From the NCBI GenBank assembly GCA_021442455.1, contig JABUSY010000021.1, positions 16,630-80,629 on the forward strand: DNA of 64,000 nt, in the 5' to 3' direction. Position 1 is the first letter of the stretch. Each line of letters opens with the position of its first letter. The stretch is from Lachnospiraceae bacterium. Its GTDB lineage: Bacteria > Bacillota > Clostridia > Lachnospirales > Lachnospiraceae. Under the pieces are notes generated by a model, which did no database searches, had not been told where the DNA came from, and saw only the letters and a list, made by a program, of their open reading frames with translations. Made by a program: the position numbers and the translations under genes. Of this stretch, positions 2-34,332 are shown one piece after another.

Positions 2-301
2 GATACGTATACGGTGCGATTTGCGGTCGGCATGTTGATGCGATTGTATCTAGATGATGCATTTAAGCCGGAATATCCGGAGCTTGTGGCTGGTATTAGG
101 TCAGATGAGTATTATATCAATATGATAGTTGCCTGGTATTTTGCTACAGCTCTGGCTAAGCAGTATAGGAAGATACTTCCGTTCTTACAAGAGAAACGGC
201 TGGATAAATGGACACACAATAAAGCAATCCAGAAGGCCGTGGAAAGCTACCGCATCACTGAGGAACAAAAGGTTTATTTGAAAACATTAAAAATAAAATA
301 A
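2..301 (+). CDS. DNA alkylation repair protein (AlkD-like HEAT-repeat family), 3' part; 5' end lies outside the window
   Basis: The frame is open from position 2 (DTYTVRFAVGMLM...). The C-terminal motifs YYINMIVAWYFATALAKQY and DKWTHNKAIQKAVESYRI are typical of this family. Confidence 0.75.
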   Translation, partial: DTYTVRFAVGMLMRLYLDDAFKPEYPELVAGIRSDEYYINMIVAWYFATALAKQYRKILPFLQEKRLDKWTHNKAIQKAVESYRITEEQKVYLKTLKIK

Positions 302-2149
302 ACATATAAAACTCTGAGACGAGAGGGAAAAGCAGCATTCGCAAATGATTGCTGAGGGATACTTTTCTGATGAGAAGTCTTTTAAAAGGATCAGGAGTCT
401 TTTGACTGGAGTGTTCGCTTCGATTACGTGGAGAATTTTTGTCAGTATGATAATCACTTTTTCGGCGATTCAGTAGTAGCTTGTTTGGTCAACGGTTGTT
501 TTTATTTTCTAGGATATAGGTTATAGCGTCTTGAGGGACGCTGTCTTGGGTTAGTGTTTTTGTAGCCTCGAAAGCGAACAGTATTATTTTGTTATTTGGC
601 TGTGCGAACTTAAGATAACAATTTTTTTTTATTCGTAATCCTTATCTGGTCTTTTCAGTAAAACAGCTGCGCTTTTCTAATGTTTTTAATATTGAGTGAT
701 TTTTAGTAATTTAATCTTCTCACAGTATGAATTGCAGTCAGTCCAGTGTGTATTTGGATTTGTGTTACATGCAATGATTCAGACAGGGCAGCAATATAGA
801 TAGTATAGTAGAGAAATTAGGTTTGTATTTTATATATCCTAAAATTTAAAAATGACTGCTGAAACAATCGTTTTTTAATATAATAGGATATTAAGTATTT
901 TGCAAATCAAATTTAGGAACGGCGCGATGAGGGATGATTTTCCACTCTCTAGCACTTTTCTCACTGTGTGGCTATAAACAACAGTACGCTTGATTCAAGT
1001 TTTTGAATAATCATTGATGATTTATTGGGCAATGTAGTCAATATGAAACGAAGACATGCTGATTATAAGCACATTGGAGATTCTAGCAGGATAAATCGAT
1101 ACAGTATGATTTTGATCCTTACGTAAACATTCTTTTTGCGGAGAGTTCGATTAACCATCAACAGGAATGGAGAGCTGTTTTTTTATGGATGCGCGTAAAA
1201 AGCGCCTGGGTCCTAAGATAAAAAGAAAAAAATCTATGAAATTAATGAATCTTCTTCAATACGTAGATGAGAATTTTTCTGCGTTTCTTGGAAAAGTTTG
1301 ATCCGTACAGATGGCCAGTGGTGAGCATCTAAATTTCGCTTTCCTGAAGGGAAAAAGAGCAAAGCACTGTTTACCGGCTCCTGAAAAAGATATAAGGTCA
1401 TATTTGCTGTAAGAATTTAATCTTATAGATAGAAGGTTCAGATTTTCTGGTTTATTCTTCATGATCATTATTTTATCTGAAGAAAGAACACTTTACTCCA
1501 CGGAGGAAGCTAGGTATAGGATAATGATATTTTGTTTCTTCAGAATTTGGTAACAAAGACGATTTTGCTGTCGCTCTTTTTTGTTTCGCAGCAGGTGACA
1601 GCAATATCATGTGCTGTTCCAAAGGAGATAGAGATTTTGCTGTCTTGGAGGGATGAATATTGAAATTCAGAAGCGACAGCATTTTAGTCGTCTTTGGCTG
1701 AAGCAATCTGAAGACAGGTATTATTTTGGCATAGCCAAAGGTAATGATAAGTTAGGAATATGTTTTTTCGATGGATAAGCTCGACGAATAGTCGTATTTC
1801 ATAAGCTAGTTGAAAATTATATACTTTAGTATCGGAAAGGCTTTAAAGGAAATGTATCATTTGGACAACGTTTTGTCCTGCCAGTACGGTCGCCATGTTT
1901 TTCGTTCCAGGATGAGCTTGTATGAAGGTCACACTTCTTTGTTAAAACATTAAAGCAACAGTCTTGAAAAAAGTTTATGCTTCCGGTTGTAATTGTCCAA
2001 TTTGGAATTTTCAGAAATTCGTTATTCATACGGCAATATTCATTTCTCGTGTATATGATATGAGATTAAAAGTCAGTTTGATTCAATCATTCACATTTGA
2101 CAGAGCGATATCGGAGGAACGGATTTTGCTGTTTAGGAGGATTCATCCT

Positions 2150-3100
2150 GTTTATTTTTCCTGAATCGTCTTAAACTTTTCGAGATTGATTTATTGTCGT
2201 CAATGGAAATCAGGCTCCGTTTTTTGAGTTATGCTAGTTTTGATGGTGATGAATCCGTTGTCAAATATGCTTTCTAGACCGTGCAACATGTAGTGATTTA
2301 GAATTGCTTACAAAGTGAGCTTTAACAAATTACAAATCAGAGGCCGTTAGCTACTATCAGAGGAGAGCGGTATTACTGTGAAATTAAGTTTTGTAATATT
2401 CTTGTGTTCTTACCATAGAGGTACCACATTGAAGACTTTGTTCACATTGCAGCGAAAAGATGAAAAGGGGCTTCTGTTATATCCTCACTTCCTCTGTATA
2501 TGATATTCCAGAACCTGCTAGTGAATGGAGTTTCAGAGTTGTTGTAGAAAAAATAAAGCTTAATCTGATGCTCAAAGTAAATTGGAGGGGGCTTTGCTTA
2601 GACGCTGATCGTAATCGTATATGTCCAAATTTGTATTCCGTTAATCTGTGTTCAAACAAGCTTTACGAGGAAAAATTCCGGAAAGGTGTTTTCTGGCGGC
2701 TAGTTCTTTGAAGTAATTATGGAAATTATGCGGGAAATTAGTTAGCCGTAACGCCTGCTAAGGAAAAGAAGTTGCATAAAAAAGAGATATACAGTGACTG
2801 TTGCATAAAGTAGGAATAAAAAGCGGGAAATTTCGTATACAGCTTCTACCGAAATAGACAATATTTTTATGTTTAGTTGATAGTAGGTGTAAAGAAATTG
2901 CATTCTCGTAGCGGATATATTGAACAGGACTAGGACTATAAACCAGTTCATTTGTAGATCTAACCGTCTAGATGGCTGTTTGGCATACCCTGAAGATTAA
3001 AATGTGAAATATGAAATATATATATACGCTTGGATATCACAGATGATCTTAGAATAGATGGAATCAAAGGCTGTTTTATTGCTAATTCTGATTGTTTCGT
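2150..3100 (-). pseudogene. Decayed YesM-like sensor histidine kinase
   Basis: Minus-strand fragments LHGLESIFDNGFITIK and LISIDDN resemble the HATPase N/G1 region (ENAIxHGLE...TITI...IEDNG). ASKQSPLQFTLSIRL loosely matches SQINPHFLFNxLESIRM. Multiple stops and frameshifts; boundaries approximate. Confidence 0.45.
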
Positions 3101-3935
3101 AACTATGGAAGGTGAAATCCTACATCGGTAGTAATGGAAATAGTGTTGAAAATTTCGGAAATTTCCAGATCTGATAGAATCAATGAATGGTACAGTTCAC
3201 ATAATCTTTATTTATATTTCGTAGAAACATATAAAAAGTTAGAAAAAAATATCCGGTGTATTGCTGCAGATATAATTTATTGTTTTAGTGATAGTGGTCT
3301 CTACGTTGGGATATACATAGCGTTTCGGTATCGGTGTATCACAATAGATATTAAATTTTTTTTTGGAAAAGTTAAGCTTTTGATTTTCGGCATAAAGAAC
3401 AGGCATATGCATCAACGAATCCTGGAACAGGATGAAATTTACTTGATATTCATCTATTTTTAATTAGGGATTTCTCTAGTGTAGTGATTAACTGTTCCTG
3501 CCTGAACAGATTTTTCCTCATTTCCGTTATGATACTAGTAAATTACATGACTTGGCCGTTGATCAGCTCTGTCTTATTAGTTGCATTTAGATGGTAGTCG
3601 GATATCCACAAAACACACATAGATTTATCTAGGAATATTCAAAATACTGATAGTCGTTGATAATGATGAAAGGGGTATCCACATCTCGTAATTGTTGTAC
3701 CAGGTCTAGGTCGTCATAATCAGATATTTTATTTGTATATCTATGATGACGATATCTAAATTGTGTTCCAAATGGTCTCTAAAGCTTTTCGATGTGGGGC
3801 CATTCCATAAAGTTTCAGTTCAAGTTTTCTTCCATTCGAACAGATTGATAATTGATTTTCAGACCTTTATTTTAGTAATCATTAGTAATCACATATGTGT
3901 GTTTTCGCATTTTATGGGTTGTATCTATTGAGATT
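3100..3935 (-). pseudogene. Decayed YesN/AraC-type response regulator
   Basis: Frameshifted receiver-domain fragments: KGLKSIINLFEWRKLELKLYGMA, HNLDIVIIDIQ, DDLDLVQQLRDVDTPFIIINDYQYFEYS* (consensus EGL..IDWE..G...DIVITDI.MP.MDGLELI..LR....FIILSGY.DFEYA). Confidence 0.6.
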
Positions 3936-4774
3936 GTTCTATAAAATTTCAAATCTAAAAATGATATACAGAAAATATATAAATGACGAAAAATAACGCT
4001 CATCTACTCAATATCATATATATAAGAAAATATAATAAAAGCTGGAGCAGATGAAGTGAAACGGATTGTGATGGCCAATGTATTCAGTGGCTATTTTGTA
4101 GAACCTGGAGTTTTTGATATATACTATCTTTCTGTCGGAAACAAAAGATCTCACATCGAAGAACCGGAGCAAAGGTTATATAAAGGTTATATGATAGTCA
4201 GGAAATCGGTAAATTTAGTACTGAAATTGGCAATAAGAGTGATTTTAGTTCCAATTCTTATTATGCAAAGAGTCATAGTGATAAATTTACGATTCAGTTT
4301 AAAAAGCGTTGAAGGAAGAGGAATTCTATGTGGATAATTGTGGAAGTTATTTTGGTACTGGACAATATACACCGTTAAACGGCGATCTGTATAAACTTGT
4401 ACGAGGAACATTCATTTGACATTTAAATTAAATGCCAGAGGTATTTACTGGAGATTTATGAAGCTGCCAAACAGCAAAGATCAAATTTATAATGCTAGTA
4501 TTTTGCTTTCCAGTTATTGGGAGGTGACTTGTACTTGGGAGACTTCCAGTAAAATTGAATGAAACAGGAAAATGTGGTGATTGCACTTCACTTAATGATG
4601 TGAAAGAAATATGAGGATCTTAGTTAGAAGATATCTTGATAGTCAATGTAGATAAAAATCAGGTAGTAAAGAGATTTTTGTCCTGTCAGACATTTTCTTC
4701 TAAGACACGAACTTAAAACGGAGAGGCTACGTGTTTAAGGAAAAAAATAAATTTGTTCAGTAGTTTTTATTTTT

Positions 4775-4814
4775 TATGAGATTTTGTAAAAACGTATGAG
4801 ATTTTGTAAAAACG
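4775..4814. repeat. Perfect 20-nt tandem duplication TATGAGATTTTGTAAAAACG x2
   Basis: Read directly: 4775-4794 is identical to 4795-4814. Confidence 0.95.
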
Positions 4815-5950
4815 GTATATTATTATACATAAAGGCCAGTGCTGCATCTGTATTTTTGTACTTCAGGAAAAGGAGAGATAATTGATGTGTAGGAAATGAT
4901 AAGTTATATATAGAGTGTATACAAAGAAAAATTATGGTTGAACAAAATTGTTACATGATGGCTTATGTCAGTCATTGCGCAACAATTTTAATTAGGAATA
5001 ATTATGGTTATTAAATTGTAGAAAACATCTTTATGAACTTAAGCAATTCGTATATATTGAAATCTCATCTTGAGTATGTTATTCTTGTAAAGAGCATAAA
5101 TAAATATTCATGCTGTGTGGAAAATCATTTTATGTGATTATCAGTATTTCTCAAAGATTTACAAAGTATATGTCTTGTGGAAAGTGAAAACATTGATATT
5201 GCAGGGATAGATTATGATTCCATGAGGGTAAGAAGAGCTTCTTAGTATAGAGATACATGGCACTTTGAATGAGAAATACGAATTTGCTGGCGATGCAATT
5301 GTTAAGGGCGGATGCTCTTGTAGTACAAGCATCAGTAAAAGTTACGGTTAAAACCGGTATGCCTAGGCATTCAGTATTATATGAAGATGTTGCTAGATTG
5401 TTTCGATTTAAATGGACATTCCGAGAAAAGGAAATTATATATATCTGACTGTTATAGTTATCTGCCGCTGTTTTTCTGTAACAAAAAATATACGTACTTC
5501 GTTGAAAAAAACAAAATCAAGGGATATGTGAAGATTTAATAGTTCATTTTTGTTCGACTCTCTCTACAATGCTATATTTGAAGAGCTTATTGACTACCTT
5601 GTTAGAATATTCCATGCATCGGATAGTGTAGTTGTTCTGCTGCGAAGGTAATCAGTTATATTTCAGATACTTTGAAAAGGGAGAGATTTTCGAACGGTTA
5701 ATCGATTTCATCACCATCATTTCGGATAATCTGAAGAATGAGATTTTTTCAGGAAAAATCATTGACGATATCAAAACCGGCTCATCAATGGGGGAGTAAT
5801 CAATGAATGAATGCGTTCTGCTTGAGAAAATCCTAGAGGAGGAGAGAAAAGTACAGTGAAGGGAAAGAGATGGCTGGTCACAGTTGTTACAGAATGAATA
5901 GTAACATCAGGAGACTGTTTGCGGGCGAATGATAAAAATAAGAGGGTAGT

Positions 5951-8182
5951 ATGAAGGAACAATACGCGGATATTATTGTTGATATCACTCACGAAAAGTT
6001 GGATCGGCCTTTCCAATACCAGATACCTTCTGAGCTGAAAGGGCAAGTACAGGCGGGAACACGAGTAAAGATCCCTTTTGGTGAAGGTAACCGTATCATC
6101 AATGGTTATGTGATCAGTTTGGGGAGTAGACCGAGATATAAACCAGAGAAAATTAAAAAAATTGCTGAAATGGCGGAAGACGGGATTACTGTGGACACAA
6201 AACTAATCATGCTGGCCACTTGGATTCGGCACACCTATGGTTCCACTATGATTCAGGCGCTGAAGACAGTAATGCCGGTAAAGGATAAGCAAAAAACCAA
6301 ATTCGGCAGAAAAATTCTGTTGAATGTCAATCAATTGCAGGCAGCCTTCTGGTTGGAGGAGTTTCGAAGAAAAAAATACAAGGCTAAGATTCGGCTCCTA
6401 GAGGCATTGCTGGAGCGGACAGAGCTTACTGATGAGTATGTTTCCAGAGAATTGAAGATATCTGAAGAGTCGATGAAAAAAATGACAGAGAAGGGAATTA
6501 TTCGCATGGTACAGCTTACAGTATATAGGAATCCTGTTGAGAAATTGGATGTTTTGCTGCAGGAGAAGGCAGTTCCAGATTTGACAGCGGAACAACAGAA
6601 GGTTTTGGATGGAATTCTCAGAGAATGGAAAGTCGGGGAGCGTCCATGTTTGATTCAGGGAGTCACGGGAAGCGGTAAGACACTGGTTTATATGAAGCTG
6701 ATAGAGAAGGTACTTTTGAAAGGACATCAAGTGATTATGCTGATTCCAGAGATTGCATTGACCTGGCAAATGGTCCAGCGGTTTTACCGAAGATTTGGTA
6801 GTTTGGTGACTGTTCTGAATTCTAAAATGTCTCCGGCAGAGAGGTATGACCAGTTTGAACGGGTAAAACGGGGAGACGTTCAGGTTATGATAGGTCCAAG
6901 ATCTGCTTTGTTTACACCGTTTTCGAGACTTGGATTAATTGTGATTGACGAGGAGCATGAAAATTCGTACCGTAGCGAAGGAACGCCAAAATATCATGCG
7001 CGCGAAACAGCGATCGCCAGAGGAAAGTTGGAGGGAGCACATGTAGTTATGGGATCAGCGATGCCGTCGATTGATGCTTATTATAGGTGCAAACAAGGAC
7101 ACTATGCGTTATTTCAGATAAAGAGTCAGTATGGAAATACAGTTTTCCCGAAAATATATCTTGTGGATATGCGAGAAGAATTAAAAAAAGGAAATCGTAC
7201 AGTCTTGAGCAATTGCCTGCAGGAGGCTATCGAGCTTCGTCTAAAAGCTGGAGAACAGGTTATATTGTTTCTTAATAGGAAAGGATATGCAAGCGTCATT
7301 TCTTGCAGAGCCTGCGGACATGTGATTAAATGTCTTCACTGCGACGTTCCCCTCACGTATTACAATAATGGCAGGCTGATCTGCCATTATTGTGGTTTTG
7401 ATAGGGAAGAGCTAAGGAGCTGCCCGAAGTGCAACTCACCGTATATCGGAGGCTTTTACGCTGGAACTCAGCAAGTGGAGCAGATGGTGAAGAAGTTTTT
7501 TCCGAAGGCTAGGACGTTGCGGATGGATGCGGATACTACCAGAGGAAAAGATAAATCTGAGAGGATTCTGAAAGCATTTTCTGCAGAAAAAGCAGATATT
7601 CTGATTGGTACCCAGATGATTGTAAAAGGACATAATTTTTCGAAAGTGACACTGGTTGGAGTGATTGCTGCCGATATGACTTTGTTCGCCAGTAATTACA
7701 GAGCGGCAGAACGGACGTATCAGTTGTTGGCGCAGGCGATTAGTTGTGCAGCTCAGAGAGAATTGCTTGGAGAAGTTGTGATACAAACTTACTATCCGGA
7801 GCATTACAGCATAAAAGCAGCCCTTTCGCAGGATTATGAAGCTTTCTATGAAAAGGAGATTGATAGCCGCGAGCTGATGAATTATCCGCCTGTATCAAAT
7901 TTGCTAGCTGTTCGCGCTTCTTGTGACAGGGAGGATCATTTACAGAATGCTATGGACTATATCAGGAGATATTTGCTTAAGATTAAAAGGAAGAAGGATT
8001 TTCAATTGGTAGGACCGGCGCCAGAAAGCATTGCTAAGATCCAGGATTATTACAGGGAAGTATTATATCTAAAGAGCAAAGAGAAACAGGAACTGATCCG
8101 GTTGCGGGAATTGTTGGAACATTATATAGAGACCAATAGTGGATTTGCTTCTGTTCATATACAATTTGATTTTAATGTTTAA
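5951..8182 (+). CDS. priA: Primosomal protein N' (PriA), full length, with degenerate helicase motifs III and VI
   Basis: 743 aa. N-terminal LDRPFQY 3'-binding domain, Walker [13 protein letters not shown], four CxxC Zn pairs. Motif III reads SAM and motif VI reads QAISCAAQ. Confidence 0.97.
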   Translation: MKEQYADIIVDITHEKLDRPFQYQIPSELKGQVQAGTRVKIPFGEGNRIINGYVISLGSRPRYKPEKIKKIAEMAEDGITVDTKLIMLATWIRHTYGSTMIQALKTVMPVKDKQKTKFGRKILLNVNQLQAAFWLEEFRRKKYKAKIRLLEALLERTELTDEYVSRELKISEESMKKMTEKGIIRMVQLTVYRNPVEKLDVLLQEKAVPDLTAEQQKVLDGILREWKVGERPCLIQGVTGSGKTLVYMKLIEKVLLKGHQVIMLIPEIALTWQMVQRFYRRFGSLVTVLNSKMSPAERYDQFERVKRGDVQVMIGPRSALFTPFSRLGLIVIDEEHENSYRSEGTPKYHARETAIARGKLEGAHVVMGSAMPSIDAYYRCKQGHYALFQIKSQYGNTVFPKIYLVDMREELKKGNRTVLSNCLQEAIELRLKAGEQVILFLNRKGYASVISCRACGHVIKCLHCDVPLTYYNNGRLICHYCGFDREELRSCPKCNSPYIGGFYAGTQQVEQMVKKFFPKARTLRMDADTTRGKDKSERILKAFSAEKADILIGTQMIVKGHNFSKVTLVGVIAADMTLFASNYRAAERTYQLLAQAISCAAQRELLGEVVIQTYYPEHYSIKAALSQDYEAFYEKEIDSRELMNYPPVSNLLAVRASCDREDHLQNAMDYIRRYLLKIKRKKDFQLVGPAPESIAKIQDYYREVLYLKSKEKQELIRLRELLEHYIETNSGFASVHIQFDFNV

Positions 8183-8195
8183 AGGAGAAATAAAA

Positions 8196-8681
8196 ATGGC
8201 GTTACGGAATATTAGAATCATGGGCGACAAGATACTGGAAAAGGTTTGTAGGCCTGTGAATACAGTAACCCCTCGACTTCGTGAGTTGGCGAAAGATATG
8301 TTGGAAACCATATATCATACCTACGGAGTTGGATTGGCCGCTCCTCAGGTAGGGATACTGAAAAGAATCGTGGTTATTGATGTGGATCGTGAGCATCCTC
8401 ATATCCTAATCAATCCAGAAATTCTTGATACCTGCGGAGAACAAACGGGGGATGAAGGCTGTCTGAGCCTTCCCGGAAAGTTAGGTAGAGTTACACGGCC
8501 AAATTACGTGAAAGTCCGAGCTTTTGATCTGGATATGAATCAGTTTGAATTAGAAGGAGTCGGTCTTTTGGCTAGAGCAATTTTTCATGAATGTGACCAT
8601 TTGGATGGTATTCTGTATACTTCTCGTGTGGAAGGAAAATTACGGGAGAATGTCGCACTGAAGGATGAAGAGAAAAAATGA
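8196..8681 (+). CDS. def: Peptide deformylase
   Basis: Motifs GVGLAAPQVG, EGCLS and HECDH. The start was moved to ATG 8196, behind an AAGGAG RBS. Confidence 0.97.
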   Translation: MALRNIRIMGDKILEKVCRPVNTVTPRLRELAKDMLETIYHTYGVGLAAPQVGILKRIVVIDVDREHPHILINPEILDTCGEQTGDEGCLSLPGKLGRVTRPNYVKVRAFDLDMNQFELEGVGLLARAIFHECDHLDGILYTSRVEGKLRENVALKDEEKK

Positions 8682-9610
8682 AAATAGTATTTATGGGAAC
8701 TCCGGATTTTTCTGTGAATACATTGGAAGCGATTTTAGAGGCCGGTCACCAGGTAGCGGCGGTAGTGACACAGCCTGATAAAACGAAAGGGCGAGGGAAA
8801 ATTCTGCAGGCTACACCTGTGAAGGAAGTTGCCATGGCTCACGGCCTGACTGTTTATCAACCAAAGAAGGTTCGTGAGGATGGTTTTCTAGAAAAATTGA
8901 AGAAAATTCATCCAGATGTAATAGTTGTCGTGGCATTTGGTCAGATTATTCCAGGAACGATTTTAAAATTGCCTAAATTTGGTTGTATTAACGTACATGC
9001 CTCGCTATTACCTAAATATCGTGGAGCGGCGCCGATTCAATGGGCTTTGATTAACGGTGAAGAAGTTTCAGGAGTCACAATTATGCGAATGGATGCTGGG
9101 GTAGATACAGGGGATATATTGTCTAAGGAGGAGATTCTCCTAGAAAAGGATGAGACGAGCAGTTCACTGTTTGGAAAACTAAGAGAGATGGGAGCCAGGC
9201 AGTTAGTTCAGACGCTTGAACGGTTAGAGGATGGAACGGTTCAGCCACAAAAACAACCAGCAGAGAGCTCTACAGATTATGCGAGGATGATAAACAAGGC
9301 GGATGGGTTAATTAACTGGAGGAAGGATGCGAAATCTATTGAACGTTTGATACGGGGGATGAACCCTTGGCCAAGTGCTTTCACGCGTATGAAAGGGAAA
9401 AATTTAAAAATCTGGAAAGCGGATGTACTGCAACAAGATTCCAAATTGGCACCGGGAACCGTCGTTAGTGCTGGTAAAGAGGGTCTATCTGTTCAGACCG
9501 GCAAGGGACAGCTGAACATACTAGAACTGCAGTTAGAAGGGAAGAATCGCATGGATGTAGATGCTTTTTTGCGCGGCTGTTTTCAGAAAACGGGTGCAAT
9601 TTTTGGCTGA
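8678..9610 (+). CDS. fmt: Methionyl-tRNA formyltransferase
   Basis: MKIVFMGTPDF and INVHASLLPKYRGAAPIQWA; overlaps the def stop. Confidence 0.97.
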   Translation: MKIVFMGTPDFSVNTLEAILEAGHQVAAVVTQPDKTKGRGKILQATPVKEVAMAHGLTVYQPKKVREDGFLEKLKKIHPDVIVVVAFGQIIPGTILKLPKFGCINVHASLLPKYRGAAPIQWALINGEEVSGVTIMRMDAGVDTGDILSKEEILLEKDETSSSLFGKLREMGARQLVQTLERLEDGTVQPQKQPAESSTDYARMINKADGLINWRKDAKSIERLIRGMNPWPSAFTRMKGKNLKIWKADVLQQDSKLAPGTVVSAGKEGLSVQTGKGQLNILELQLEGKNRMDVDAFLRGCFQKTGAIFG

Positions 9611-9630: not shown

Positions 9631-10320
9631 ATGGGACTATATTACTGTAGGTTTGAATGTATATTGATTTTGGTGACATTTTTTATTTCCCTGGTGGTTC
9701 AGTTGAACATGCATGGGACGTTTAAGAAGTATAGCCATATCAGAAGTATCAGCGGGATGACAGGAGGAGAAGCAGCGAAACAGATTTTGCGTAGAGCCAG
9801 AATTTTTGATGTTCAGGTAATGCATATTCATGGGAACTTGAACGATCACTATGATCCCTGGAGGAAGGTGATTAAGCTGTCTGATTCCATATACAGCGGC
9901 TCTTCTCTGGCAGCAGTGAGCGTAGCGGCACATGAATGCGGCCATGCGTTACAGCATGCTACGGCATATACGCCTCTTTTTGTCAGAAGCGCTTTGGTAG
10001 GGGTTTCTCATCTTGGCTCTCAACTTTCATGTCCATTGTTCTTGATAGGTCTGATTTTTTCCGTGCGGCCTCTTTTGACGGCCGGAATTTGCCTTTTCTG
10101 CGGAGCACTGTTATTTCAGCTGGTTACACTGCCTGTGGAATTTGACGCTTCCGACAGAGCACTTAGAATTTTGAAACAAACAGGAATTATGGTGCAGCAG
10201 GAGATATCAGGAACCCGTAAAGTGCTTAGAGCAGCAGCTATGACCTATGTAGTTGCTGTTGTAGCATCTATGATTCAGTTATTACGGCTGATTTTACTTT
10301 CAAGGAGAAACGATGACTAA
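9631..10320 (+). CDS. YugP-like membrane neutral zinc metallopeptidase
   Basis: DHYDP, AAHECGHALQ (HExxH) and TLPVEFDAS; conserved position after fmt. Confidence 0.88.
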   Translation: MGLYYCRFECILILVTFFISLVVQLNMHGTFKKYSHIRSISGMTGGEAAKQILRRARIFDVQVMHIHGNLNDHYDPWRKVIKLSDSIYSGSSLAAVSVAAHECGHALQHATAYTPLFVRSALVGVSHLGSQLSCPLFLIGLIFSVRPLLTAGICLFCGALLFQLVTLPVEFDASDRALRILKQTGIMVQQEISGTRKVLRAAAMTYVVAVVASMIQLLRLILLSRRNDD

Positions 10321-10830
10321 ATTATATGAATATACGTGAACTGATTCTGAAATTTTAGAAGAAAAAACGTATCAACCATAGGATTTTCAAAAAGGTTGTG
10401 AAAAACCCATCATATTTGTTCAAGTAAGATTAAGCTTTTTATAGCAGGCTTTGTGAAGGAATATTTGTGTACAAAATTTTGTTGGATTATGTGATCAATT
10501 ATTTTTAAAAGTTTTATTGTAAAGATGAAGTTTGTGTTTTTGAAAATTCTGCGGCTTTCTGTTTTCTGTTTATTAAATGATATATAAGGAAAAAATTCAC
10601 ATCCGGACATATTGGTATATGAAATGCTTAAATTGGCACAGAAAAAAGGTTTTTAGTAGTTAACAAGCTTTATTAATGGTTGTGCTACGGACGATTTTCC
10701 GAGAAAGTGAACAGGCACGGTATCACGGGTATTCGATGTAGTTTGACGCTCCCGATTCGAACTGGATGGTGCCTGTAGATTGATTGATCGTTTTGCTATT
10801 CAATGCTAGAATAACATGTTGAGTAATGTA
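10313..10830 (+). pseudogene. rsmB: 16S rRNA m5C967 methyltransferase RsmB, 5' remnant
   Basis: ATG 10313 with an AGGAG RBS overlapping the yugP stop. Frameshifted fragments MNIRELIL, YKILLDYVIN, KILRLSVF and EMLKLAQKKGF**LTSFING match the RsmB N-terminal NusB-like domain. Confidence 0.8.
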
Positions 10831-10859
10831 AAGAGGTACTATTAGTTGCGAAGCAATCT

Positions 10860-11100
10860 TCGATTGAAAGGCTAATTAGCTTTGGAAGAAATTATTTTGT
10901 GTTAAGTTTAAGCTGTTACGTAAATTTGATTTTGACTACTTGTAAAAGATAAAAATTTTGTGTGTTATTACAATAAAAAGTGATTATGAATTTTCAAAAT
11001 AAACTTGAAACCTACGAAATTAATGTTACTTTTATTAAAAAAAGCAATGGGTAGCGATATCAATGACGTTTGTGAAAATTAAGAAAAAGCTCTTTGGATA
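10860..11100 (+). pseudogene. rlmN: Radical SAM rRNA/tRNA methyltransferase RlmN, 3' remnant only
   Basis: CYVNLI and NFQNKLETYEINVTFIKKAMGSDINDVC match the RlmN C-terminus (CHVNLIP...INVTIRREMGxDIDGACGQL). Correct syntenic position before stp. Confidence 0.75.
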
Positions 11101-11135
11101 AGATACGCAGTTAGTGCGTTATGGGAGGATAATAT

Positions 11136-33430: not shown

Positions 33431-33447
33431 AAAATGTGGAGGCAAAG

Positions 33448-34332
33448 ATGAATTACGATTTTACGATTACCGGTCATACCGGTTTTACTGGCTTGTTAGG
33501 AAATCCTGTTACACACAGCCTTTCTCCTCTAATGCACAATGAGGCTTTCCGGATTCTTGATCTGGATTACGTATATTTATGTTTTAATGTAGGGGAAGAT
33601 ACCCTGGAAACTGCGGTTAAGGGGCTGATAGCTTGTGGGATTCGTGGATTTAACTTGACTATGCCTGATAAAAACCGAATGGCTGAGCTAGCAGATGAGC
33701 TTTCGTTAGCGGCACAAATGATCGGAGCTGTTAATACGGTTGTCAATGAGAGTGGAAAGCTTATGGGACACAATACTGACGGACTCGGTTTTATGCACTC
33801 TATGCGGGAAGTAGGATTTGATCCGAAGGGTCAGACTATGACGATATTCGGAGCGGGGGGGGCGGCTTCTGCCATTTGCGTTCAGGCGGCTTTGGACGGA
33901 ATTTAGATTTTGAATATATTTGCCCGCCCTTCCAGCCGTTTTCATCAGAGGACTTTACAGCTAGTGGATACGATTAACAGAACCACCGCTTGCAGGGCAG
34001 CACTTTACGATTTGGCGGATACAGCAGTGTTAAGATCATCTTTTCTGAATAGCACACTTGTGGTCAATGCCACAACGGTTGGTATGGCACCAAATATTAA
34101 TCATTCTGTTCTGGAAGATACTTCTTTATTTCATTCGGGATTGTTAGTCGCTGACATTATATATAATCCAAGAGAGACACAGTTTCTGTCTCGAGCGAAG
34201 GCAGCCGGATGCCGTACATTTAACGGACTACATATGCTGCTCTATCAGGGTGCGGAGGCATTCAGACTCTGGACAGGAAGGCAAATGCCAGTGAAAAATA
34301 TTAAAGAGAAGTATTTATCTCAATGTGTATAG
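33448..34332 (+). pseudogene. aroE: Shikimate/quinate dehydrogenase (AroE/YdiB-like) split by one in-frame TAG at 33904-33906
   Basis: LLGNPVTHSLSP, FNLTMPDK, NTDG and GAGGAA upstream; NATTVGM, DIIYNP and MLLYQGAEAF downstream in the same frame (DGI*ILNIFAR). GGAGG RBS before ATG 33448. Confidence 0.85.

What the first reader, a model, noticed from the sequence alone, without database searches (positions are those of the whole stretch)
7052..7759. PriA appears to be turning into a pseudohelicase while its ORF stays intact
Seen: motif VI reads QAISCAAQ (CAG GCG ATT AGT TGT GCA GCT CAG, 7733-7756) instead of QxxGRAGR, so both arginines and both glycines are gone. Motif III is SAM rather than SAT (ATG at 7061). 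Walker A/B, the 3'-binding domain, all eight Zn cysteines and the 743-aa frame are preserved. Known: motif VI arginines are needed for SF2 ATP hydrolysis, E. coli ATPase-dead PriA (K230R) still supports replication restart, and Deinococcus PriA is a natural pseudohelicase. Inference: selection keeps only the fork-recognition and replisome-loading scaffold, giving an independent, in-progress origin of a helicase-dead PriA in Firmicutes. The G-to-S, R-to-C, G-to-A and R-to-Q changes are each reachable by a single nucleotide substitution.
Basis: partly seen in the sequence, partly recalled or inferred. Interest (0 to 1): 0.75.

Follow-up and report, generated by a model that had tools for sequence, protein, structure and literature searches.

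The report
PriA with an eroded helicase motor
In a shrinking, mutation-battered gut Lachnospiraceae genome, the replication-restart protein PriA is still kept by selection, but the arginine motif it needs to burn ATP has decayed at the neutral rate; this makes it a young natural case of the already known "helicase-dead PriA".

Summary
The 743-aa priA ORF (5951-8182) reads QAISCAAQR where all 149 relatives examined read QxxGRAGR(G). Motif III is SAM instead of SAT.

Context matters. The genome is 1.38 Mb, 37% GC and about 52% ORF-covered. It evolves about 11 times faster than its sister, and 86% of changes are GC>AT. PriA overall is no faster than 16 neighbouring genes, and omega is 0.14. A neutral copy would carry about 17 stops, so the gene is not dying.

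Within PriA, constraint is uneven:
- Motif VI took 5 of 16 possible transition hits, against a neutral expectation of 5.5.
- Walker A, motif Ia and motif II took 0 of 20 (expected 7).
- The 3'-binding domain has no change at 45 conserved columns.
- Lobe 2 has lost its usual extra constraint.

RecG and UvrB of the same genome keep all their motifs.

Best reading: a PriA kept as fork-recognition and loader scaffold, with ATP hydrolysis lost or crippled. No biochemistry supports this, and motif VI is not confirmed in reads. It is a new member of a known kind (Deinococcus type), and notably recent.

The parts
5951..8182 (+). priA, intact 743-aa ORF (stop included). It is the only PriA in the genome.
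   Evidence: ORF. TIGR00595 scores 569 bits against a cut-off of 230, and Pfam finds 3'BD, DEAD, Helicase_C, Zn_ribbon_PriA and PriA_C. It is the single copy in G000. There are no indels against the sister genome's 743-aa PriA.
5942..5946 (+). Shine-Dalgarno-like GAGGG, 4 nt before the ATG
   Evidence: Sequence read directly.
5951..6280 (+). 3' DNA-binding domain (aa 1-110), conserved
   Evidence: PF17764, E=2e-21. No change at 45 columns that are >=97% conserved. omega 0.12.
6659..6682 (+). Motif I / Walker A GVTGSGKT (aa 237-244), intact
   Evidence: 0 of 9 vulnerable G/C sites hit, against a neutral expectation of 3.0.
6941..6958 (+). Motif II / Walker B VIDEEH (aa 331-336), intact
   Evidence: 0 of 5 vulnerable sites hit.
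6989..6991 (+). Aromatic-rich loop Arg>Lys (R347K, AGA>AAA). It is equivalent to E. coli R334.
   Evidence: Invariant R in 120 homologues. Codons. Position relative to K. pneumoniae WRY. ARL function: PMC5175346.
7052..7069 (+). Motif III GSAMPS instead of GSATPS (T371M, ACG>ATG at 7061-7063)
   Evidence: Confirmed in RNA contigs of two runs covering 6736-7147 and 6748-7094.
7268..7297 (+). Motif IV region FLNRKGYASV instead of FLNRRGYAGF (R444K, G448S, F449V)
   Evidence: Confirmed in RNA contigs covering 7131-7356 and 7132-7342.
7304..7432 (+). Cys-rich zinc region. All 8 cysteines are kept, but P462L, S467P and H471Y hit otherwise invariant positions.
   Evidence: PF18319 hit.
7607..7642 (+). 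Motif V GTQMIVKGHNFS instead of ...KGHDFP (D562N, P564S)
   Evidence: Confirmed in an RNA contig covering 7512-7692.
7733..7759 (+). Motif VI QAISCAAQR instead of QAVGRAGRG. Both arginines and all three glycines are replaced, and a new Arg sits at 603.
   Evidence: 5 of 16 vulnerable sites hit, against a neutral expectation of 5.5. Not covered by any read set found.
7826..8179 (+). C-terminal domain (aa 626-743), conserved
   Evidence: PF18074, E=9e-13. omega 0.115.

Best explanation
This is the genome's single, expressed priA. Purifying selection keeps it as the replication-restart initiator: it recognises forks and D-loops through the 3'BD, WH, CRR and CTD, and recruits the DnaD/DnaB-like protein and the DnaI-type loader.

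Its SF2 motor has lost the motif VI arginine fingers, and motifs III, IV and V and the aromatic-rich loop are also damaged. ATP hydrolysis and DNA unwinding are therefore most likely abolished or severely reduced.

The cause is strong G:C>A:T mutation pressure with weak selection in a decaying, host-restricted-type genome. This pressure hits the GC-rich Gly and Arg codons of the motor motifs. The hits were tolerated because PriA's helicase activity, unlike its loading function, is dispensable for the main restart route.

Walker A, motif Ia and motif II remain under selection. Nucleotide binding, or the integrity of lobe 1, probably still matters.

Shown here: the sequence state, its uniqueness, purifying selection on the gene, neutral-rate decay of motif VI, specificity relative to RecG and UvrB, transcription, and presence of the partner genes.
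Inferred: loss of ATPase and helicase activity, and retention of loader function.
For: 1. Motif VI and motif III are canonical in all 120 homologues and 29 relatives' genomes. They are altered only here.
2. The gene is under selection. omega against the sister genome is 0.14, like other pairs in the genus. There are no indels, whereas a neutral copy with the observed substitution spectrum would carry a mean of 17 stops, and 0 of 5000 simulations were stop-free. PriA's lineage-specific amino-acid rate is 0.107 per site, equal to the 0.102 of 16 neighbouring genes.
3. Constraint within the gene is uneven:
   - At columns >=97% conserved, lobe 2+CRR has 16 of 120 changed, the rest 8 of 166 (p=0.016), and the 3'BD 0 of 45.
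   - The lobe 2/rest dN ratio is 1.20, the highest of 36 same-genus pairs; pairs without this genome give 0.26-0.80.
   - Conserved Gly and Arg in lobe 2 are changed at 12 of 36 sites, against 71 of 525 in the neighbours (p=0.003).
4. Motif VI took 5 of 16 possible transition hits, against a neutral expectation of 5.5. Walker A, motif Ia and motif II took 0 of 20 against 7.0 expected.
5. Controls in the same genome are untouched. RecG is 82% identical to the sister's and UvrB 85%. Both keep every helicase motif: motif VI 0 of 15 and 0 of 12 hits, against 5.2 and 4.4 expected.
6. 86% of nucleotide changes on this branch are GC>AT. The genome is 36.8% GC against 50-57% in relatives.
7. RNA contigs from four metatranscriptomes match priA exactly. 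They are denser over priA-def-fmt than over the flanking dead DNA.
8. The DnaD/DnaB-like protein, the adjacent DnaI-type loader, RecA, RecG and PcrA are all present.
9. Literature: E. coli priA300 (K230R) lacks ATPase yet behaves nearly like wild type, and Deinococcus PriA is a measured pseudohelicase (PMC5778457, PMC4504706). That SF2 motif VI arginines contact the gamma-phosphate is established knowledge, not tested here.
Against: - There is no biochemical test. No PriA motif VI mutant was found in the papers read.
- Walker A, Ia and II are conserved more strongly than a fully dead ATPase would need, so residual or altered nucleotide-dependent activity is possible.
- The new R603, next to the lost R602, might partly substitute.
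- Lobe 2 still has omega 0.17.
- Several statistical contrasts are moderate (p=0.016-0.07).
- Four-fold sites are an imperfect neutral proxy in a genome with shifting GC.
- Motif VI bases are not confirmed by reads independent of the assembly.
- For B. subtilis it is unsettled whether the PriA motor is needed (PMC10804225).
Confidence: 0.6

Rival explanations
1. PriA is still a working, if weakened, helicase. The substitutions are slightly deleterious changes fixed by drift in a small population. Hydrolysis persists through the intact Walker A/B, the new R603, or other compensating residues.
For: Walker A, Ia and II are strictly conserved: 0 of 20 vulnerable sites hit against 7 expected. Lobe 2 has omega 0.17, so it is still constrained. 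G603R creates an arginine next to the lost R602. Every gene in this lineage carries many unusual substitutions, about 11 times the sister's rate.
Against: Both motif VI arginines and all three glycines are replaced, and the motif evolves at the neutral rate. Motifs III, IV, V and the ARL are hit as well. The equally fast-evolving RecG and UvrB kept every motif, so drift alone does not erase catalytic motifs that are needed.
Confidence: 0.22
2. The gene as a whole has recently become dispensable and is at the start of pseudogenisation. The ORF is open only because too little time has passed.
For: The genome is about 52% ORF-covered. The genes on both sides of the priA-def-fmt block are dead: murE-like, rsmB and rlmN remnants. 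Earlier notes describe pseudogenes of many ages.
Against: Motif VI has already accumulated the full neutral load of the branch, so motor relaxation is old. Over the same time the 3'BD has 0 of 45 conserved columns changed, Walker A/B are untouched, and there are no stops (17 expected) and no indels. omega is 0.14. The gene is transcribed. RecA, RecG and the loader genes, which give PriA its substrates and partners, are kept.
Confidence: 0.12
3. The state is an assembly or binning artefact: the motif VI stretch is a consensus error or a chimeric join in a metagenome-assembled genome.
For: The genome has 72 contigs and is probably a MAG. Positions 7693-7887 are not covered by any independent read set found.
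Against: The stretch aligns codon for codon with the sister genome, without indels, and differs by the same G>A and C>T transitions as the rest of the gene. Ten other unusual substitutions in the same gene are confirmed at 100% in independent RNA contigs. The contig is 147 kb long and syntenic with relatives.
Confidence: 0.04

Closest known systems
Deinococcus radiodurans / Deinococcus-Thermus PriA pseudohelicase (Lopper et al. 2015, PMC4504706)
   Same: It is a full-length PriA that keeps the fold and DNA-binding parts, with catalytic helicase residues replaced and the gene retained by selection. Its presumed role is a fork-recognition and loading scaffold.
   Different: In Deinococcus the Walker A lysine and Walker B are degenerate across a whole phylum (an old loss), and the absence of ATPase and helicase activity was measured. 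Here Walker A/B are intact and constrained, and the loss sits in motif VI (plus III, IV, V and the ARL). It is confined to one tip lineage whose sister, 81% identical, is canonical. Activity is untested.
E. coli priA300 (K230R) laboratory allele (reviewed in PMC5778457)
   Same: It separates the loading function from the motor: an ATPase-dead PriA still supports restart through the main pathway.
   Different: It is an engineered single Walker A change in a PriA-PriB-DnaT system. The present organism uses the Firmicute DnaD/DnaB/DnaI-type partners, for which the need for the motor is unsettled (PMC10804225).
Canonical Firmicute PriA (B. subtilis, S. aureus) and the solved PriA structures 4NL4, 6DGD and 8FAK
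   Same: Domain order is the same: 3'BD-WH-lobe 1-lobe 2 with inserted CRR-CTD. It is about 35-40% alignable to the solved structures (E=5e-105). The synteny priA-def-fmt is kept.
   Different: Motif VI arginines, the motif III threonine, the motif IV arginine and the ARL arginine are replaced.
Motor-less PriAs noted earlier in this scan (CPR/Patescibacteria, Aminicenantes, Atribacterota, insect endosymbionts; unchecked AI notes)
   Same: They show recurrent natural loss of PriA ATPase motifs with the ORF kept. One case is also a reduced symbiont genome.
   Different: Most of those are ancient, clade-wide losses that include Walker A/B. This one is recent and partial, and it can be polarised against a canonical sister genome.

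Membership tests
PriA (primosomal protein N' / replication restart helicase family, TIGR00595) | Family HMM score above the curated cut-off | tested here: met
   TIGR00595 scores 569 bits against a cut-off of 230; 570.6 bits in the genome search.
PriA (primosomal protein N' / replication restart helicase family, TIGR00595) | Domain architecture 3'BD, SF2 lobes 1 and 2, Cys-rich Zn region with 8 cysteines, CTD | tested here: met
   PF17764, PF00270, PF00271, PF18319 and PF18074 all hit. The 8 Cys are at 452, 455, 461, 464, 478, 481, 491 and 494.
PriA (primosomal protein N' / replication restart helicase family, TIGR00595) | Complete set of SF2 catalytic motifs (I, II, III, VI) | tested here: not met
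   Motifs I and II are intact. Motif III is SAM and motif VI is SCAAQR with no conserved Arg.
PriA (primosomal protein N' / replication restart helicase family, TIGR00595) | Orthology: single copy, conserved neighbourhood (priA-def-fmt) | tested here: met
   It is the one PriA in the genome. The order is collinear with three relatives.
Natural PriA pseudohelicase (Deinococcus type) | Catalytic ATPase residues replaced in an otherwise conserved PriA | tested here: met
   The motif VI arginines and glycines are replaced, with further changes in motifs III, IV, V and the ARL. The motifs affected differ from Deinococcus, where Walker A/B are lost.
Natural PriA pseudohelicase (Deinococcus type) | No ATP hydrolysis and no duplex unwinding in vitro | not testable with these tools
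   This needs purified protein. It is inferred only from the motif VI state.
Natural PriA pseudohelicase (Deinococcus type) | Retained structure-specific DNA binding | not testable with these tools
   Indirect evidence only: the 3'BD has 0 of 45 conserved columns changed.
Natural PriA pseudohelicase (Deinococcus type) | Gene maintained by purifying selection after the motor loss | tested here: met
   omega is 0.14. There are no stops against 17 expected. Motif VI is at neutral load while the 3'BD and Walker A/B are untouched.
Pseudogene (decaying gene of this genome) | Stops, frameshifts or deletions, or omega near 1 | tested here: not met
   The ORF is intact at 743 aa with no indels against the sister. 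omega is 0.14.
Firmicute PriA-DnaD-DnaB-DnaI primosome | Partner genes present in the same genome | tested here: met
   A protein with two DnaB_2 domains (393-aa frame) and an adjacent IstB/DnaI-type ATPase lie on contig C10. Physical interaction was not tested.

The most novel reading that the evidence does not exclude
PriA in this lineage has become an ATP-binding but non-hydrolysing fork-recognition switch. The arginine-finger side of the cleft (lobe 2, motif VI) is free to drift, while the nucleotide-binding side (Walker A, Ia, II) is still selected.

The canonical sister genome is only dS ~0.7 away. This would therefore be a datable snapshot of the order in which a helicase turns into a pseudohelicase. 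It would also be natural in-vivo evidence that the Firmicute PriA-DnaD-DnaB-DnaI restart route does not need PriA's motor, a point that the B. subtilis literature calls unresolved.
Probability: 0.3. Interest if true: 0.6.

Novelty: new member of a known kind. Interest (0 to 1): 0.42.

Why it matters
Natural helicase-dead PriAs show that fork recognition and helicase loading can be separated from the motor. This case is very recent: its sister genome still has the canonical protein. The decay can therefore be polarised codon by codon and compared with an internal neutral rate and with RecG and UvrB of the same genome.

The case gives a ready pair of proteins (G000 and its sister) for testing which motifs matter. 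It also allows a test of whether a Firmicute-type primosome tolerates a motor-less PriA. In addition, it illustrates how GC>AT pressure in a collapsing genome selectively erases Gly- and Arg-rich catalytic motifs whose function is only weakly selected.

The general phenomenon is already known, and no activity has been measured here.

Tried and rejected
- **Second PriA copy.** I looked for one that could carry the helicase function and found none. The other hits are RecG and UvrB.
- **Shared motif in relatives.** I checked whether relatives share the state. None does.
- **PriA faster than other genes.** Rejected: PriA's lineage-specific rate equals that of 16 neighbouring genes.
- **Read confirmation of motif VI.** No DNA run could be listed, and the RNA contigs leave 7693-7887 uncovered. 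The exact-protein look-up gave only the genome's own record and a 129-aa N-terminal fragment.
- **Loss of Ung or MutS as cause of the transition bias.** Both genes are present.
- **Loss of RecA or RecG removing PriA's substrates or suppressing its helicase.** Both are intact.
- **Transcribed stretch 5106-5583 as a known RNA.** There was no Rfam hit. The stretch is the 5' remnant of a dead murE-like gene.
- **Frameshift hiding GRAGR in another frame.** Checked by eye; the other two forward frames do not encode it (sequence).
- **Not run.** PAML-type branch models (not installed), structure prediction (no coordinates are returned, so it would not test activity) and a database-wide census of motif VI-less PriAs.
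Full report
**Observation**

The window holds a 743-aa ORF at 5951-8182 on the + strand, preceded by a GAGGG ribosome-binding site. It is unambiguously PriA. TIGR00595 scores 569 bits against a cut-off of 230. All five PriA Pfam domains hit: 3'BD, DEAD, Helicase_C, Zn_ribbon_PriA and PriA_C. It aligns to the solved K. pneumoniae and E. coli PriA structures at E=5e-105. It is the only PriA in the genome.

Codons 7733-7759 read QAISCAAQR where K. pneumoniae PriA has QVSGRAGRA, and 7052-7069 read GSAMPS in place of GSATPS. Walker A (GVTGSGKT), DEEH and the eight zinc cysteines are present.

**Uniqueness**

- All 120 nearest database homologues have GSATP. The pattern scan captured motif VI in 33 of the 40 printed, and each reads GR[AS]GRG; the column analysis of all 120 shows G598, R599, G601 and R602 at >=97-100%. 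The best homologue is 81% identical and named Lachnospiraceae.
- All 29 PriAs recovered from relatives' genomes, from the same genus down to 40% identity, have QxxGRAGR.
- At 286 columns that are >=97% conserved among the 120 homologues, this protein deviates at 24.
- Besides motif III and motif VI, these include R347K in the aromatic-rich loop, which corresponds to E. coli R334. That loop couples DNA binding to ATP hydrolysis (PMC5175346).
- They also include R393Q; R444K, G448S and F449V in motif IV; P462L, S467P and H471Y in the Cys-rich region; and D562N and P564S in motif V.

- The genome has 1.38 Mb in 72 contigs, with an estimated completeness of 98%. Same-genus genomes have 2.3-3.9 Mb.
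- Its GC content is 36.8%, against 50-57% in the syntenic regions of three relatives.
- ORFs of 100 aa or more cover only 52% of the DNA. This agrees with an earlier first-stage note that the genome is in collapse.
- The 5.6 kb upstream of priA holds no real ORF. It contains the remnants of a murE-like gene at 5057-5242 and 5566-5856.
- Downstream of the priA-def-fmt block lie remnants of rsmB and rlmN.
- On the branch to this genome, 211 of 244 polarisable nucleotide changes in priA are GC>AT, mostly G>A and C>T.
- A relative-rate test used two outgroups. Sixteen neighbouring genes have 445 lineage-specific amino-acid changes, against 40 in the sister genome, an ~11-fold excess.
- PriA has 64 against 9. 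Its per-site value of 0.107 equals the neighbours' 0.102.

So PriA as a whole is not evolving unusually fast for this organism.

**Is the gene dying? No.**

- Nei-Gojobori omega against the sister genome is 0.14 (dN 0.098, dS 0.70). This is the same as other pairs in the genus, 0.13-0.15.
- The two 743-aa genes differ at 389 of 2229 nucleotides without a single indel.
- I applied that substitution spectrum neutrally to the sister sequence. It gave a mean of 17 in-frame stops, and none of 5000 simulations was stop-free.
- RNA contigs from four gut metatranscriptomes (three samples) match priA at 100% identity. They are denser over priA-def-fmt than over the flanking dead DNA.
- These contigs also confirm ten of the unusual substitutions. 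They do not cover 7693-7887, so motif VI rests on the assembly alone.

**Is the relaxation specific to the motor? Partly.**

- At conserved columns, lobe 2 plus CRR has 16 of 120 changed and the rest of the protein 8 of 166 (p=0.016). The 3'BD has 0 of 45 changed.
- Four changes within six residues at motif VI exceed chance (p=0.017).
- The ratio of dN in lobe 2+CRR to dN in the rest is 1.20 for this genome against its sister (bootstrap 0.81-1.69). This is the highest of all 36 same-genus pairs. The 28 pairs that do not involve this genome range from 0.26 to 0.80.
- Conserved Gly and Arg residues, whose codons are most exposed to GC>AT pressure, changed at 12 of 36 sites in lobe 2. In the neighbouring genes they changed at 71 of 525 (p=0.003).
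- Lobe 2 nevertheless keeps omega 0.17. It is still selected as a folded domain.

**The sharpest result**

This comes from normalising by an internal neutral rate. Four-fold degenerate sites give P(G>A)=0.30 and P(C>T)=0.44 on this branch.

| Motif(s) | Vulnerable sites hit | Neutral expectation |
|---|---|---|
| Motif VI | 5 of 16 | 5.5 |
| Walker A + Ia + II | 0 of 20 | 7.0 (P about 2e-4, my calculation from the rates) |
| Motifs III, IV, V | 5 of 30 | 10.8 |

Motif VI has therefore drifted as if unconstrained for essentially the whole time since the split. Walker A, Ia and II have been held fixed over the same time. Motifs III, IV and V are in between.

The same calculation on RecG and UvrB of this genome gives no hits. 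These proteins are 82% and 85% identical to the sister's, about as diverged as PriA. Their motif VI took 0 of 15 and 0 of 12 hits against 5.2 and 4.4 expected, and all their other motifs are intact. Drift in this genome therefore does not erase helicase motifs that are needed. PriA's motif VI is specifically unprotected.

**Mechanism**

It is established knowledge that SF2 motif VI arginines contact the gamma-phosphate and are needed for hydrolysis. I did not test this here. With both arginines gone, and motifs III, IV, V and the ARL also damaged, ATP hydrolysis and unwinding are most likely lost or crippled.

Such a protein can remain useful. E. coli priA300 (K230R) has no ATPase, helicase or translocase activity, yet behaves nearly like wild type and works in vitro through the PriB route (PMC5778457). 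D. radiodurans PriA binds forks but neither hydrolyses ATP nor unwinds DNA (PMC4504706).

The genome keeps what PriA would need as a loader:
- a DnaD/DnaB-like protein with two DnaB_2 domains, and next to it a DnaI-type ATPase;
- RecA, RecG and PcrA;
- MutS and Ung, so the transition bias is not explained by their loss.

Continued constraint on Walker A/B suggests that nucleotide binding, or lobe 1 integrity, is still used. Whether the motor is needed in Firmicutes is described as unresolved for B. subtilis (PMC10804225).

**Rivals**

- A weakened but active helicase (0.22). The conserved Walker motifs and the new R603 favour this. The neutral-rate decay of motif VI and the intact RecG and UvrB controls argue against it.
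- Early whole-gene decay (0.12). The state of the genome favours this. The old age of the motif VI decay, combined with an untouched 3'BD, no stops and no indels, argues against it.
- An assembly artefact (0.04). The codon-for-codon correspondence with the sister, and the RNA-confirmed changes elsewhere in the gene, argue against it.

**Comparison and novelty**

The closest known case is the Deinococcus-Thermus PriA pseudohelicase. There the Walker A lysine and Walker B are lost across a whole phylum, and the inactivity was measured. Here Walker A/B are kept, the arginine-finger side is lost, the event is confined to one tip lineage, and activity is untested.

Earlier notes of this scan, unchecked and used only as leads, list some 39 findings of motor-less PriAs in CPR bacteria, Aminicenantes, Atribacterota and insect endosymbionts. 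Recurrent loss therefore seems common.

I file this as a new member of a known kind. Its particular value is its youth and the clean internal controls. Interest is moderate (0.42).

Noticed in passing
whole genome G000 (window = C1:16630-80629): The genome has 1.38 Mb and 36.8% GC, against 50-57% in same-genus relatives of 2.3-3.9 Mb. Only about 52% of it is covered by ORFs of 100 aa or more. All 16 tested genes carry about 11 times more lineage-specific amino-acid changes than the sister genome. It looks like a recently host-restricted, decaying Lachnospiraceae.
   Followed up: partly
window 5951-8182 (priA), branch to G000: The mutation spectrum is extreme. 211 of 244 polarisable changes are GC>AT, with G>A 110 and C>T 79 on the coding strand, showing some strand asymmetry. 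Ung and MutS are nevertheless present.
   Followed up: partly
window 5057-5242 and 5566-5856: These are remnants of a 514-aa MurE-like ligase, which lies directly upstream of priA in the sister genome, with about 310 codons deleted. The 5' remnant is still transcribed (RNA contigs 5106-5583 in four runs), so priA may be read from the dead gene's promoter. I did not check whether a second murE exists.
   Followed up: partly
window 300-5950: 5.6 kb has no ORF longer than 109 aa and no Rfam hit. It is dead DNA next to an intact 743-aa gene.
   Followed up: partly
window 10320-10680 and 10830-11111: These are remnants of rsmB (first ~124 codons) and rlmN (last ~120 codons, 34% identity), lying between the 229-aa ORF after fmt and prpC. 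Both genes are intact in the sister genome.
   Followed up: partly
window 33435-33903 and 33909-34329: Two adjacent ORFs of 156 and 140 aa both match one 290-aa protein of two relatives.
   Followed up: no
G000:C45:3-1211 and G000:C53:135-1349: The only Mfd match is an N-terminal half that runs off the end of a 2.4-kb contig, so Mfd may be truncated, lost or merely unassembled. A second UvrD/PcrA-like paralogue on C53 carries four in-frame stops.
   Followed up: no
window 8139-8681 (def) and 8678-9610 (fmt): Peptide deformylase and formyltransferase keep their catalytic motifs (GVGLAAPQ, EGCLS, HECDH). Def has one deviation at 33 columns and Fmt none at 34 columns that are invariant in 26 relatives, despite the fast lineage rate.
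   Followed up: yes
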